Of a DNA stretch of 64,000 nt, positions 43,234-54,776 are shown in pieces (within the stretch, counting starts at the first letter, position 1; the number at the start of each line of letters is the position of its first letter). This DNA is from the human T2T-CHM13v2.0 reference genome, Homo sapiens. Location: assembly GCF_009914755.1 (NCBI RefSeq), contig NC_060944.1; one strand, given 5' to 3'. A model generated the notes under the pieces. That model searched no databases, was not told where the DNA came from, and saw only the letters and a program-made list of their open reading frames with translations. Position numbers and translations under genes: made by a program.

Positions 43234-43278
43234 ATGAAAAGGAAAATGGCTCGGTCATTTCTAGAGGTGATATCACAG
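43234..43278 (+). CDS. ZNF840P: Predicted start-codon exon of the KRAB-ZNF gene (MKRKMARSFLEVISQ)
   Basis: In-frame ATGs at 43234 and 43246 (AAAATGG context), upstream in-frame TGA at 43228, phase-0 donor CAG|GTGAAC at 43279, acceptors at 43186 and 43200. Gives the typical SQ|ELV.F.DV junction. Confidence 0.6.
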
Positions 43279-43437
43279 GTGAACTGCTTACTTCTGATTT
43301 CCTTCCTAAAATACCAATTTACAGGGCTAAAGACATTTTGCATTTGTTCCACAAGGATGCAGCTCCCCATTCTGGTGATGAGGTGACAGTCAGAGAGGCA
43401 ACAGAGGGGACCTAAATAACCCAGAAGCTTTCTTTAG

Positions 43438-43575
43438 TGACCCAAGATTTAGTATTCATTCAACAAACTGCTCAAGGTCTGACCCAAGATTTAGTATTCA
43501 TTCAACAAACTGCTCAACGACTGACCCAAGATTTAGGATTCATTCAACAAACTACTCAAGGACTGACTGACCAAG
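43438..43575. repeat. 42-bp minisatellite, ~3.2 copies
   Basis: tgacccaagatttagtattcattcaacaaactgctcaaggtc starts at 43438, 43480 and 43522. Confidence 0.95.
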
Positions 43576-43931
43576 AGGAGTCATTAGCACAGGTCTTCTA
43601 GGCATGAATTTGTTTGAAAACTTTTAAGCTGAAGAATAGGAGTCCCTGGGGATAGTGAGTTCAGTTTGAAGTTGGACAGCTTGCATGTGTTGGCAGCGCA
43701 GGGAGCAATGGCTTAACTTGCTCTCAAATCTATGGGAGAGCTGGAGCAGGGCACAGGCAGTCAGGTGGATGGGATGAAGGTGGAGGGATGCCACCATACT
43801 TCTGGGTAACAAAAGGGCACTCGTCCTGACAGACTTAAAATCCAACACATCAAACTATGCTAATTAAAATAATATAGAAATGATAATACGTTGATGGGTA
43901 AACAGAAGAAAATAGAAGGCCAGATACACAT

Positions 43932-44365
43932 TGTGGTAGAATGAACAATCTCCCCCACCCATTGCAAAATGTCCCCATCCTAGTCCCTGGAAGCTGTGAA
44001 TGTGTTACCTTACATGGTAAAAGGGACTTTGCAGGTGTCATTAAGTTGAGGATCTTCAGATGGGGGGTTTCTCCTGGGTTGTCTGGGTGGGCCTGAAATG
44101 TAATCACTGGGTCTCTGTAAGAAACAGGCAGGGGGATGCTATGTTGTTGGCTTTGAAGACAGGATAGGGCTGGCCACGAGCCAAGGAATGCAGGTGGTTT
44201 CTAGAAAAGTTGAGGAATCAGATTCTTCCTAGAGCCTGCAGCAGGGACACAGCACTGCTAACCCATATTGTACTTCTGAACTCCACAACTGTAAGATTAT
44301 AAATTTGTGTTGTTTTAAGCCATGAAGTTGGTGGTAATTTGTTATGGCAGCAGTAAGAAACATTA
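43932..44365 (+). mobile_element. MLT1-type MaLR LTR
   Basis: tgtgaatgtgttaccttacatggtaaaagggactttgcaggtgt...ggtaatttgttatggcagca. Confidence 0.85.
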
Positions 44366-51300: not shown

Positions 51301-51523
51301 TGCCCAGTACCAACATGATGAAGTTGGTAAATCTTCTACACATTTTTAATAGGACTCACATTTAATGGATGGTAGTACTTTCTTTTAATCCTGACTTCTC
51401 TTTTATATATTCTATTTCTCCAGTTCCTTCCCTCTAAAAGAATTCTCCAACCTGCTATTTCATCTTTGGCTATGTAATTTTGCTATAAATGCCAACCATT
51501 AAGTTCATTTAAACATATCTTCA

Positions 51524-51808
51524 GGGTGGGTGTGGTGACTCATACCTGTAACCCCACCACTTTGGGAGGCTGAGGCGGTCAGGCCACTTGAGGTCAGAAG
51601 TTTGAGACCAGCCTGGCCAACATAGTGAAACCCGTCTCTACTAAAAATACAAAAATTAGCTGGATGTGATGGCATGGCCAGCTACTCGAGAGGCTGAGGC
51701 AGGAGAATCACTTGAGCCTGGGAAGCGGGGCTTGAAATGAGCCAAGATCATGCCATTGCACTCCAGCCTGGGTGACAGACTCTCTCAAAAAAAAAAAAAA
51801 AAAAAAAA
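51524..51808 (+). mobile_element. AluS
   Basis: Alu with TSD CATATCTTCA. Confidence 0.9.
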
Positions 51809-52965
51809 TTAAAAACCATATCTTCAAACCAACTGTTCCCACTTTGTCCCTTTTATTACCACTGATTCTGTCCCATGTTGAAATATTTATGTTTTTGAAA
51901 ATATTACTCATGTATATTTATAAATATTCCACTATATCTATACATTTTTCTAAGCACTTCAGTAGCATCTCAGACTAGAATGAAGAAGATAACAGAAACC
52001 TGTGCTGGTTCTCCATCTTATCAGTGGCAGATTTTTTTGTCTGTATTAACATATCTACTATATTTTGTATGTATATAGAAATGCTCAATCTATAATTCGT
52101 ATGTGTGTAGGAATGCTCAAATTTCTTTCTGCAGTTAACCAGTTTCTAGATGTTTTTATTACAAAAAAAGTGCTAGAACTCATGACACCACAGTTTTATA
52201 TAAAGGTAAGTTTGATAGTCTAGGGTTATCAAGATACTGGAAAATAATGGTGTGTTCATGCAATATAAGAACTTCAGTGCAGTGCATGTATATACCAAAA
52301 ATATAATTGGGAACTCTCATTTCTAAGAATCGATACTAGAATATATTTCAAATTAACAAAGATGTAGATTTAAGATTGTTCTTAATGTTCTTAGCAACAA
52401 CAAAAATAAGTACAACTCAAATATCCAAATAGAGCATCGGCCCAATCAATAATGACCCTGTCGCACAGTAAAACATTCAATATCAAATTGATAAGACAGA
52501 TGTGTATTTACTCATAAGTATCCCCAATTCTGATGTTCAAAGGAAAATATTTAAAGTGTAATCACTTTCACAAATTGCTATACCACACAGAAATATTTTA
52601 AAGGGCCTTAATGGAAACAAAACTTTAATCCATGCTTAGGATTTCACGTGATTCTTTTTAGGTTCTTTAAGCTTTTCTGTTTTGGTTATTAAAATTTCAT
52701 TCAGCCATTTTTACAATCACAAGTATAATTATTTCAAGTTTAAAGAAATAGAAAAAAATTCAATGGCCACTGTTGATCACTTAAATCATTCTTGTACGTG
52801 GAGAAACAATTCTCTGCCTCTCCACCTCCACAAACTCCTACTTCTCATCCTACCCCTCTAAAGTCTCCAGTCACTGCACTCTTCTTTCCCTCGCTTTCCT
52901 AATTAACTTGATGTATGTTGCAGTGTCCAGTTCTGATTTTTTTTCTCATATTGTTTTCCTACTAG

Positions 52966-54776
52966 CATGTCAACCAGCATTGGCAACGTTTCGTGCCCTC
53001 AATGAATCTGGGAATGCCTTCAGACAAAGCTTTCACCATGGAGAATACCGAACACATCGTACTTTTGTCCAGCATTATGAATGTGATGACTGTGGCATGG
53101 CTTTTGGGCATGTGTCACAACTTACTGGACATCAGAAAATCCATAAGGTAGGGGAAACCCACGAATATGGTGAAAATACAAGGGGCTTTAGGCATCGCTC
53201 ATCATTTACAATGCTCCAGAGAATATGTACACTATATAAACACTTTGAATGTAACCAATGTGGTGAAACTTTTAACAGACCTTCAAAGGTTATTCAACAT
53301 CAGAGCATGCACAGTGGACTGAAGCCATACAAATGTGATGTATGTCAAAAGGCCTTTAGGTTTCTCTCATCCCTCTCTATACATCAGAGATTTCATGTTG
53401 GCAACAGAGTAAACCTGACTCGGCATCAAAAAACTCATACTCAAAGGAAGCCCTTTTCCTGTAACTTTTGTGGAAAAACCTTTCACCGTTTCTCAGAAAA
53501 AACTCAACATCTATTAATTCATACTAGAAAGAAATATTATACATGTAATTATTGCAAAAAGGAATTCAATCCGTACTCCAAATTTATTCTACATCAAAGA
53601 ACTCATACAGGAGAGAAACCCCACAAGTGTGATGTTTGTGAGAAATCCTTTAAAAGCATCTCAAATCTTAATAAACATCAGAAAACTCATACTGGAGAGA
53701 AGCCCTTTTCATGTAATGAATGTAAAAAAACCTTTGCCCAGCGCACGGATCTTGCTCGCCACCAACAAATCCATACCGGAAAGAAGTCTTTTATTTGCAG
53801 TAGTTGTAAAAAGACCTTTGTCCGTCTGTCAGATCTAACACAACATAAAGGAACTCATACGGGAGAGAGACCTTACCAATGTACGACTTGTGAAAAAGCC
53901 TTTAAATATCGGTCAAACTTTACTAAACATCAGAAAACTCATTCTATAGGGAGGCCCTTTGCATGTAATGAATGTGGAAAGACCTATCGCCTTAACTGGG
54001 AACTTAACCAACATAAAAAAATTCATACTGGAGAGAAACCCTATGAATGTGGTGAATGTGGAAAGCGTTTTAACAATAATTCAAATCTTAATAAACACAA
54101 GAAAATCCATACAGGAGAGAAACACTTTGTATGTAATCAATGTGGAAAAGCTTTTAGCTTAAACTCAAAGCTTTCTCGACATCAGAGAACTCACAATAAA
54201 AAGGAAAACTCCTCTAAAAGCGTCTCAAATCTTAACAAACATCAGAAAACTCATGCTGGAGAGAAGCCCTTTCCATGTAATGAATGTAAGAAAGCCTTTG
54301 CCCAGCGCATGGATCTTGCTCGCCACCAACAAATCCATACTGGAAGGAAACCTTTTATTTGCAGTAGTTGTAAAAAAACCTTTGTCCGTCTGTCAGATCT
54401 AACACAACATAAAGGAACTCATACAGGAGAGAGACCTTACCAATGTACAACTTGTGAAAAAGCCTTTAAATATCAGTCAAACTTTACTAAACATCAGAAA
54501 ACCCATTCTATAGGGAGGCCCTTTACATGTAATGAATGTGGAAAGACCTTTCGCCTTAACTGGAAACTTAATCAACATAAAAAAATTCATACTGGAGAGA
54601 AACCCTATGAATGTGGTGAATGTGGAAAATGTTTTAACAATAATTCAAATCTTAGTAAACACAAGAAAATCCATACAGGAGAGAAACACTTTGTATGTAA
54701 TCAATGTGGAAAAGCTTTTAGCTTAAACTCAAAGCTTTCTCGACATCAGATAACTCACAATAAAAAGAAACCCTAA
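52966..54776 (+). CDS. ZNF840P: C2H2 zinc-finger exon, 18 intact fingers
   Basis: Acceptor ttgttttcctactag| at 52965 is in the phase-1 frame of ORF 52908-54776; no stop until TAA at 54774-54776. Confidence 0.9.

What the first reader, a model, noticed from the sequence alone, without database searches (positions are those of the whole stretch)
43234..54776. The 'pseudogene' KRAB-ZNF locus splices into an intact 692-aa ORF
Exons of 45+127+96+1811 nt (2079 nt) join through GT-AG sites in matching phases (0,1,1) with no stop, encoding KRAB-A, KRAB-B and 18 C2H2 fingers. Two large structural changes in the finger exon (a 14-codon deletion and a 188-codon duplication) both kept frame, unlike the frameshifted array at 18-19 kb. 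I recall this locus as ZNF840P with only a putative protein entry. It may be a live or very recently silenced gene. The start exon is the least certain part.
Basis: partly seen in the sequence, partly recalled or inferred. Interest (0 to 1): 0.85.

Follow-up and report, generated by a model that had tools for sequence, protein, structure and literature searches.

The report
ZNF840P: intact oocyte KRAB zinc-finger gene
The locus that RefSeq calls the pseudogene ZNF840P does splice into an unbroken KRAB zinc-finger reading frame, but published oocyte peptide evidence and a newer gene catalogue have already reclassified it as protein-coding.

Summary
Four + strand exons (43234-43278, 46565-46691, 47104-47199, 52966-54776) join through GT-AG sites into 2079 nt, giving 692 codons plus TAA with no internal stop. 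They encode a KRAB-A box (Pfam E 5e-21), a KRAB-B-like box and 18 canonical C2H2 fingers. The 564-nt in-frame tandem duplication and the 14-residue half finger are both real.

The interpretation ("live or very recently silenced") is supported, but it is not new. A PeptideAtlas audit (PMC11601488, PMC12679747; passages read) reports 12 discriminating peptides for ZNF840P, all from oocytes. It also states that GENCODE v49 now annotates the gene as coding. RefSeq's pseudogene label in this window simply lags behind.

What I add:
- A bushbaby protein is the reciprocal best match and shares the odd degenerate fingers, so the gene may predate simians, against the paper's "simian duplication".
- The duplicated halves differ at 27 of 564 nt, with dN/dS about 0.33.
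- Sequence alone cannot exclude silencing since the human-chimpanzee split.
- The start exon stays unproven: 5 other candidates lie within 20 kb upstream, and the KRAB-A exon has no start codon of its own.

The parts
43234..43278 (+). Candidate start-codon exon (15 codons). It may be an internal exon that begins at a pyrimidine-rich AG near 43186.
   Evidence: ATG at 43234 with an A at -3, an in-frame TGA at 43228-43230, and donor CAG|GTGAAC. It is not unique: 6 candidates of this kind lie in 26565-46560, 3 of them with better donors.
46565..46691 (+). KRAB-A exon, 127 nt, phases 0/1.
   Evidence: Pfam PF01352 E 5.3e-21, 74.4 bits. Aligns to the ZNF568 and ZNF93 KRAB chains in the PDB. 33 of 42 residues are identical to the bushbaby protein P0010. 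Its frame is closed 21 codons upstream with no ATG in between.
47104..47199 (+). KRAB-B-like exon, 96 nt, phases 1/1.
   Evidence: AG and GT flanks. Aligns to the ZNF568 B box, E 0.0075. 25 of 31 residues are identical to P0010. No Pfam match on its own.
52966..54776 (+). Finger exon, 1811 nt, with 18 canonical C2H2 fingers and stop TAA at 54774-54776.
53163..53243 (+). Degenerate finger-length unit without cysteines, between fingers 1 and 2.
   Evidence: Finger starts at residues 39 and 95 are 56 residues apart. The same degenerate unit is present in P0010.
53406..53453 (+). Half finger left by the 14-codon shortfall.
   Evidence: Finger starts 123 and 165 are 42 residues apart. The half finger is shared with P0010, so it is old.
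53640..54203 (+). Tandem duplication, copy 1 (188 codons).
   Evidence: Offset 564 nt. 27 of 564 nt differ between copies, dS 0.108, dN 0.036. The repeat finder gives 94% over a 300-nt reference.
54204..54767 (+). Tandem duplication, copy 2 (188 codons). The junction leaves a 20-residue partial finger.
   Evidence: The duplication is absent from P0010.
54759..54764 (+). AATAAA hexamer inside the last codons, 10 nt before the stop.
   Evidence: Read. The next AATAAA/ATTAAA downstream is at 57186.
53076..54428 (+). RefSeq's ZNF840P pseudogene interval. It covers only part of the finger exon and none of the KRAB exons.
   Evidence: Annotation given with the finding, compared.
38336..55053 (-). 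Antisense exons of Gnomon non-coding ZNF334 read-through transcripts: 38336-44114, 46679-46822, 47633-47772 and 54818-55053.
   Evidence: One search lists XR_008485270-72. All four have minus-strand splice dinucleotides. 38336-44114 covers the start exon, and 46679-46822 overlaps the last 13 nt of the KRAB-A exon.

Best explanation
This is a live, oocyte-expressed KRAB zinc-finger protein gene (ZNF840, still named ZNF840P) that RefSeq mislabels as a pseudogene. A spliced mRNA joins a short start exon, a KRAB-A exon, a KRAB-B exon and one long finger exon. The protein would bind DNA through an 18-finger array. It would recruit the TRIM28/KAP1 corepressor through its KRAB domain to silence its targets, probably transposable-element-derived sequences, in oocytes. 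Shown here: the ORF, the splice sites, the domains, the in-frame duplication and conservation against one strepsirrhine relative. Shown in print: translation in oocytes. Inferred only: the exact start exon, TRIM28 binding, repression and the targets.
For: The ORF is intact at 692 codons with canonical splice sites. KRAB-A scores 74.4 bits. The B box aligns to ZNF568 and KRAB-A aligns to the ZNF93 KRAB chain of PDB entry 7z36. There are 18 canonical fingers. Against the bushbaby protein P0010, zinc ligands match at 46 of 48 positions and hydrophobic core at 22 of 24. DNA-contact positions match at 37 of 48, other finger positions at 88 of 132 and linkers at 35 of 58. All length differences from P0010 are in frame: 18, 1 and 4 residues plus the 188-codon duplication. 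The duplicate copies give dN/dS 0.33, with derived changes split evenly, 4 in copy 1, 5 in copy 2 and 7 ambiguous. Under a neutral model the ORF would survive the divergence accumulated since the duplication with probability about 3e-6 to 6e-9. Literature, passages read: 12 strong discriminating peptides, all from oocytes; agreement with GTEx RNA-seq; start, stop and frame conserved in Old and New World monkeys; coding in GENCODE v49. ZNF840P is a hub gene of a late-stage oocyte module.
Against: RefSeq RS_2025_08 lists no transcript and calls the locus a pseudogene. There is no CpG island anywhere in 40-48 kb (CpG observed/expected 0.0-0.37), and no promoter or enhancer element is annotated near 43 kb. 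The excess of synonymous differences between the duplicate copies is not significant once transition bias is allowed: P 0.014 at kappa 1, but 0.07-0.10 at kappa 4. An intact ORF is compatible with neutral drift since the human-chimpanzee split, P 0.12-0.25. The start exon is unproven, and the preprint itself says the N-terminus may differ from the UniProt one. My protein searches returned no human or simian protein for this locus, so I could not compare my model with the deposited ones. The KRAB reads M-L-D where ZNF568 and ZNF93 read M-L-E, and the effect of that is untested.
Confidence: 0.8

Rival explanations
1. The gene is live, but the reader's start exon is wrong. Translation would start in another upstream exon (for example 42861-42908 or 42364-42576) or at an internal methionine, so the protein is not exactly the 692-residue model and might lack part of the KRAB domain.
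For: 6 ATG-to-AG|GTRA phase-0 candidates lie in the 20 kb upstream. 3 of them have donors closer to consensus than CAG|GTGAAC, including AAG|GTGAGT at 42908. The preprint says the N-terminus may differ from the UniProt entry. No transcript is annotated here.
Against: That fits the usual short second exon of KRAB zinc-finger genes (my knowledge). The KRAB-A exon needs some upstream coding exon, because its frame closes 21 codons upstream with no ATG. KRAB-A and KRAB-B are 79% and 81% identical to the bushbaby protein, which argues that they are translated.
Confidence: 0.35
2. The locus is a very recently silenced unprocessed pseudogene whose ORF has not yet been hit. The peptides would then be misassigned or reflect residual translation.
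For: RefSeq gives pseudogene status. The probability of an intact ORF under neutrality since the human-chimpanzee split is 0.12-0.25. There is no CpG-island promoter. Antisense ZNF334 read-through transcripts run across the whole locus.
Against: 12 strong discriminating peptides come from one tissue that matches the RNA-seq pattern. The protein is little more than 40% identical to other zinc-finger proteins, so misassignment is unlikely. The best human DNA relatives are only 64-68% identical over long matches. Expression rises with oocyte maturation.
Confidence: 0.07
3. The ORF is transcribed and translated in oocytes, but the protein has no selected function in humans (tolerated translation of a decaying gene).
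For: The dN/dS signal between the duplicate halves is weak (P 0.07-0.10 with realistic transition bias). Contact residues are only moderately conserved against the bushbaby protein (37 of 48).
Against: All 72 zinc ligands of the 18 fingers are intact. The ORF has survived far longer than neutrality allows since the duplication. Frame, start and stop are reported as conserved across monkeys.
Confidence: 0.08

Closest known systems
ZNF840P / UniProt A6NDX5 as described in the PeptideAtlas audit (PMC12679747, PMC11601488) and annotated as coding in GENCODE v49
   Same: It is the same locus and the same conclusion: an intact zinc-finger ORF that is translated in oocytes and was wrongly held to be a pseudogene.
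   Different: I could not retrieve the deposited protein or the GENCODE model, so I do not know whether the 692-residue model matches them. From memory only, the UniProt entry is 716 residues; no call shows this. The paper calls the gene a simian duplication. My reciprocal best match to a bushbaby protein suggests an older origin.
Otolemur garnettii H0XML9 (P0010)
   Same: Reciprocal best match: 68% identity from the human side against 48% or less for the other 119 listed hits. From the bushbaby side, 601 bits and 72% at this locus against 248 bits and 53% for the next human place. It shares KRAB-A, KRAB-B, the cysteine-less degenerate finger and the half finger.
   Different: It lacks the 564-nt duplication and has 11 canonical fingers against 18. 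One finger has lost two ligands. The model contains about 170 residues between KRAB-B and the fingers that look like read-through intron, so its integrity is uncertain. I had no DNA or synteny for it.
Canonical TRIM28-binding KRAB zinc-finger proteins (ZNF93, ZNF568 and the chr19 clusters)
   Same: Same architecture and exon plan: KRAB-A, KRAB-B and a tandem C2H2 array with TGEKP-type linkers.
   Different: The sequence is distant. Human paralogues reach 64-68% DNA identity over long matches, and only over the regular fingers. The neighbours ZNF663P and ZNF334 reach 24-46% protein identity. The locus is on chr20 outside the large clusters, has a CpG-poor 5' region, and is reported as oocyte-restricted.

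Membership tests
KRAB zinc-finger protein (KZFP) gene | KRAB-A box | tested here: met
   Pfam PF01352, E 5.3e-21, 74.4 bits against a cut-off of 20.4, profile positions 2-41 of 42. Aligns to the ZNF568 and ZNF93 KRAB chains.
KRAB zinc-finger protein (KZFP) gene | KRAB-B box directly after the A box | tested here: met
   Exon 3 aligns to ZNF568 residues 93-119, just after its A box at 46-85, with E 0.0075. The match is weak, and there is no Pfam hit on its own.
KRAB zinc-finger protein (KZFP) gene | Tandem C2H2 fingers at a 28-residue period in one exon | tested here: met
   18 canonical fingers with all 72 ligands present. Pfam gives 17 zf-C2H2 stretches and 15 zf-H2C2_2 stretches.
KRAB zinc-finger protein (KZFP) gene | Usual exon plan: short start exon, 127-nt KRAB-A exon (phase 0/1), roughly 96-nt KRAB-B exon (phase 1/1), single finger exon | tested here: met
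   ZNF334 next door has coding parts of 21, 127 and 93 nt plus a finger exon. That this is the general plan rests on my knowledge.
KRAB zinc-finger protein (KZFP) gene | KRAB binds TRIM28 and represses transcription | not testable with these tools
   Only sequence resemblance is available. The motif reads M-L-D where ZNF568 and ZNF93 read M-L-E.
KRAB zinc-finger protein (KZFP) gene | Transcribed, spliced and translated | not testable with these tools
   No reads were available. From print: 12 discriminating peptides in oocytes, GTEx RNA-seq agreement, coding in GENCODE v49, and a place in an oocyte expression module.
Unprocessed pseudogene (RefSeq's label) | Disabling lesions: stops, frameshifts, or lost splice sites or start codon | tested here: not met
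   There is no stop in 692 codons, all 3 introns are GT-AG, and an ATG is present. All length changes are in frame.
Unprocessed pseudogene (RefSeq's label) | Neutral evolution (dN/dS near 1) | tested here: inconclusive
   dN/dS between the two duplicate halves is 0.33, but P is only 0.07-0.10 with realistic transition bias. No primate DNA was available.

The most novel reading that the evidence does not exclude
ZNF840 would not be a simian-born duplicate but an older primate gene, already present with its KRAB domain, cysteine-less finger and half finger before strepsirrhines and haplorhines split. Its array would then have been lengthened from 12 to 18 fingers by one in-frame 564-nt tandem duplication, roughly at the simian stem (dS 0.108 between copies). 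Both halves would since have been kept under purifying selection, giving an oocyte repressor with a nearly repeated DNA-reading module.
Probability: 0.5. Interest if true: 0.35.

Novelty: already known. Interest (0 to 1): 0.25.

Why it matters
It is a concrete case where the RefSeq annotation of T2T-CHM13 still calls a translated gene a pseudogene and covers only part of one exon. An oocyte-restricted KRAB zinc-finger protein is a candidate silencer of transposable elements or imprint-related sequences in the human germline, and its targets are unknown. The in-frame duplication of 6.7 fingers is a clean example of how such arrays grow. However, the central claim that the gene is coding is already in print and in GENCODE v49. 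What remains to be gained is the correct 5' end, the age of the gene, and its function.

Tried and rejected
A parent gene in the window: ZNF663P (18-19 kb) and the ZNF334 finger exon (63.4-64 kb) are only 24-46% identical at protein level. These were the 20 of 24 tblastn pieces that fell outside the locus. Neither is a recent parent.

A parent gene elsewhere in the genome: of 106 DNA matches, only the locus itself is close. Long matches are 64-68% identical and cover only query bases from about 540 to 1810, the regular fingers. Only 40 of 470 first-look candidates were scored, so this is a floor.

More orthologues:
- One search found 6887 of 6888 candidates significant and listed 120. Only P0010 stood out.
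- One search found 399 of 416 candidates significant and listed 120. P0010 was 63% identical and the rest 42% or less.
- One search found 1 of 1 candidate, P0010 itself.
- Candidates of untold source were left out before scoring: 1112, 103 and 4 in the three searches. No human or simian entry appeared, so a blank says little.

Extending the KRAB-A exon upstream to find a start codon failed: there is a stop 21 codons upstream and no ATG.

A CpG-island promoter at 40-48 kb: none.

The sigma-70 promoter and terminator scan is a bacterial consensus scan and is irrelevant to a human locus. I disregard it.

Asymmetric decay of one duplicate copy: not seen, with 4 against 5 derived changes and 7 ambiguous.

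They could settle which N-terminus the peptides support. One search (ZNF840P, ZNF840) found 9 papers and listed 7. One search (A6NDX5, ZN840, C20orf157) found 2 papers. I found no functional study of the protein in them.
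Full report
OBSERVATION. I read the four claimed exons and their flanks and spliced them in a script.
- The exons are 43234-43278 (45 nt), 46565-46691 (127 nt), 47104-47199 (96 nt) and 52966-54776 (1811 nt), 2079 nt in all.
- Each of the first three is followed by GT, and each of the last three is preceded by AG behind a pyrimidine-rich tract.
- The phases are 0, 1, 1. The translation is 692 residues plus TAA, with no internal stop.
- The mechanical ORF list shows the finger exon inside a single 622-codon ORF.

DOMAINS. The exons were given to Pfam one at a time.
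- Exon 2 is a KRAB box (E 5.3e-21, 74.4 bits, cut-off 20.4). Exon 4 holds 17 zf-C2H2 stretches.
- A pattern search finds 18 canonical C-x2-C-x12-H-x3-H fingers, all with the four ligands.
- Exon 3 has no Pfam match. It does align to the B box of the ZNF568 KRAB, directly after that protein's A box (E 0.0075).
- KRAB-A also aligns to the ZNF93 KRAB chain of PDB entry 7z36.
- The finger period shows a cysteine-less finger-length unit at 53163-53243 and a 14-residue half finger at 53406-53453. A 20-residue partial finger sits at the duplication junction.

DUPLICATION. Self-comparison peaks at an offset of 564 nt, and the repeat finder agrees (94% over its 300-nt reference).
- Copy 1 (53640-54203) and copy 2 (54204-54767) differ at 27 of 564 nt and 16 of 188 residues.
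- By Nei-Gojobori counting there are 11 synonymous and 16 non-synonymous differences: dS 0.108, dN 0.036, ratio 0.33.
- The excess of synonymous changes has P 0.014 with equal rates, but only 0.07-0.10 with a transition bias of 4. It is suggestive, not significant.
- With the bushbaby protein as outgroup, derived residues are split evenly: 4 in copy 1, 5 in copy 2 and 7 ambiguous.
- A dS of about 0.11 resembles the human to New World monkey distance as I recall it. That would place the duplication near the simian stem. The error is large, and gene conversion would make the event look younger.

RELATIVES. The whole finger exon and its distinctive first 215 residues were searched against named public proteins.
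- Only one hit stands out among the 120 listed in each search: Otolemur garnettii H0XML9 (P0010). It is 68% and 63% identical, against 48% and 42% at most for the rest.
- Searching the human genome with P0010 gives this locus as by far the best place: 601 bits and 72%, against 248 bits and 53% for the next (run with a stricter first look).
- P0010 carries the same KRAB-A (33 of 42 identical) and KRAB-B (25 of 31), the same cysteine-less unit and the same half finger. It lacks the duplication.
- Its other length differences from the human protein (18, 1 and 4 residues) are all in frame.
- Across the 12 alignable fingers, identity by position class is: zinc ligands 46 of 48, hydrophobic core 22 of 24, DNA-contact positions 37 of 48, other positions 88 of 132, and linkers 35 of 58.
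- A search with the bushbaby KRAB found nothing else (1 of 1 candidate).
- No human or simian protein was returned by any of the three searches. Candidates of untold source were removed beforehand, so this blank says little.
- Within the human genome there is no close paralogue. Long DNA matches are 64-68% identical over the regular fingers only. The neighbours ZNF663P and ZNF334 are 24-46% identical as proteins.

HOW LONG COULD IT HAVE BEEN DEAD? I used a mutation spectrum with a transition bias of 4 and tenfold CpG transitions. Under it, 4.1% of point changes in this CDS create a stop. I also assumed that indels arise at 0.08-0.15 of the substitution rate, and I added changes to the start codon and the six splice dinucleotides. 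That gives 234-351 disabling events per unit of neutral divergence.
- The ORF would survive the divergence implied by the duplication (0.054 per lineage) with probability 3e-6 to 6e-9.
- It would survive the human-chimpanzee interval (0.006) with probability 0.12-0.25.

Sequence alone therefore shows long constraint, but it cannot exclude silencing in the last several million years.

LITERATURE. Two searches found few papers.
- The PeptideAtlas audit was read as passages only, both the bioRxiv preprint PMC11601488 and the BMC Genomics 2025 version PMC12679747.
- It lists ZNF840P (UniProt A6NDX5) with 12 strong discriminating peptides and calls this the most convincing evidence among its pseudogene cases.
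- It says all the peptides came from oocytes, in agreement with GTEx RNA-seq.
- It says start, stop and frame are conserved in Old and New World monkeys.
- It says the true N-terminus may differ from the UniProt one, and that GENCODE v49 now annotates the gene as coding.
- It calls the gene a simian duplication.
- A folliculogenesis re-analysis names ZNF840P as a hub gene of the late-stage oocyte module (passage).
- An ageing-muscle paper lists it among genes changed in aged human muscle (passage).

THE START EXON. The KRAB-A exon cannot supply its own start: its frame closes 21 codons upstream with no ATG. An upstream coding exon is therefore needed if the KRAB domain is translated.
That AG could make it an internal exon.
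- Against it: it is one of 6 ATG-to-AG|GTRA phase-0 candidates among 16 such donor sites in 26565-46560. Three rivals have donors nearer consensus: 39352-39360, 42364-42576 and 42861-42908.
- There is no CpG island in 40-48 kb, and no annotated element near 43 kb.

SURROUNDINGS. RefSeq's pseudogene interval (53076-54428) covers only about three quarters of the finger exon. Gnomon non-coding ZNF334 read-through models (XR_008485270-72) run antisense across the whole locus. Their exons have minus-strand splice dinucleotides. One covers the start exon, one overlaps the last 13 nt of the KRAB-A exon, and one begins 42 nt past the stop.

VERDICT. Most likely this is a live, oocyte-expressed KRAB zinc-finger repressor gene (confidence 0.8). 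The KRAB-TRIM28 mechanism and the targets are inferred only. The central claim is already in print and in GENCODE v49, so the novelty class is 'already known'. The small additions here are the bushbaby orthologue, which argues against a simian birth, the anatomy and rough dating of the in-frame duplication, and the limits on what an intact ORF alone can prove.

Noticed in passing
window 38336-44114, 46679-46822, 47633-47772, 54818-55053 (- strand): Gnomon non-coding ZNF334 read-through transcripts splice antisense through the whole ZNF840P locus, with canonical minus-strand splice sites. One exon overlaps the last 13 nt of the KRAB-A exon. They could interfere with sense transcription, or confuse unstranded RNA-seq.
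   Followed up: partly
window 54759-54764 and 54195-54200 (+ strand): The only AATAAA near the 3' end lies inside the last codons, 10 nt before the stop. The next AATAAA/ATTAAA downstream is at 57186. Because of the duplication, the same hexamer also sits at the end of copy 1, where use as a poly(A) signal would give a truncated, stop-less mRNA.
   Followed up: no
window 53076-54428: RefSeq's ZNF840P pseudogene interval starts at the first canonical finger and ends inside duplicate copy 2. It omits both KRAB exons and the last 348 nt of the ORF.
   Followed up: yes
P0010 (Otolemur H0XML9), residues about 84-254: The bushbaby model has about 170 residues between KRAB-B and the fingers that have no human counterpart in the spliced ORF. 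They begin like a read-through of the intron after the KRAB-B exon, so this is probably a gene-model artefact.
   Followed up: partly
They may be alternative or non-coding 5' exons of the same gene.
   Followed up: no
(protein database): No human or simian ZNF840 protein was returned, although the literature cites a UniProt human entry and a macaque AlphaFold model.
   Followed up: no
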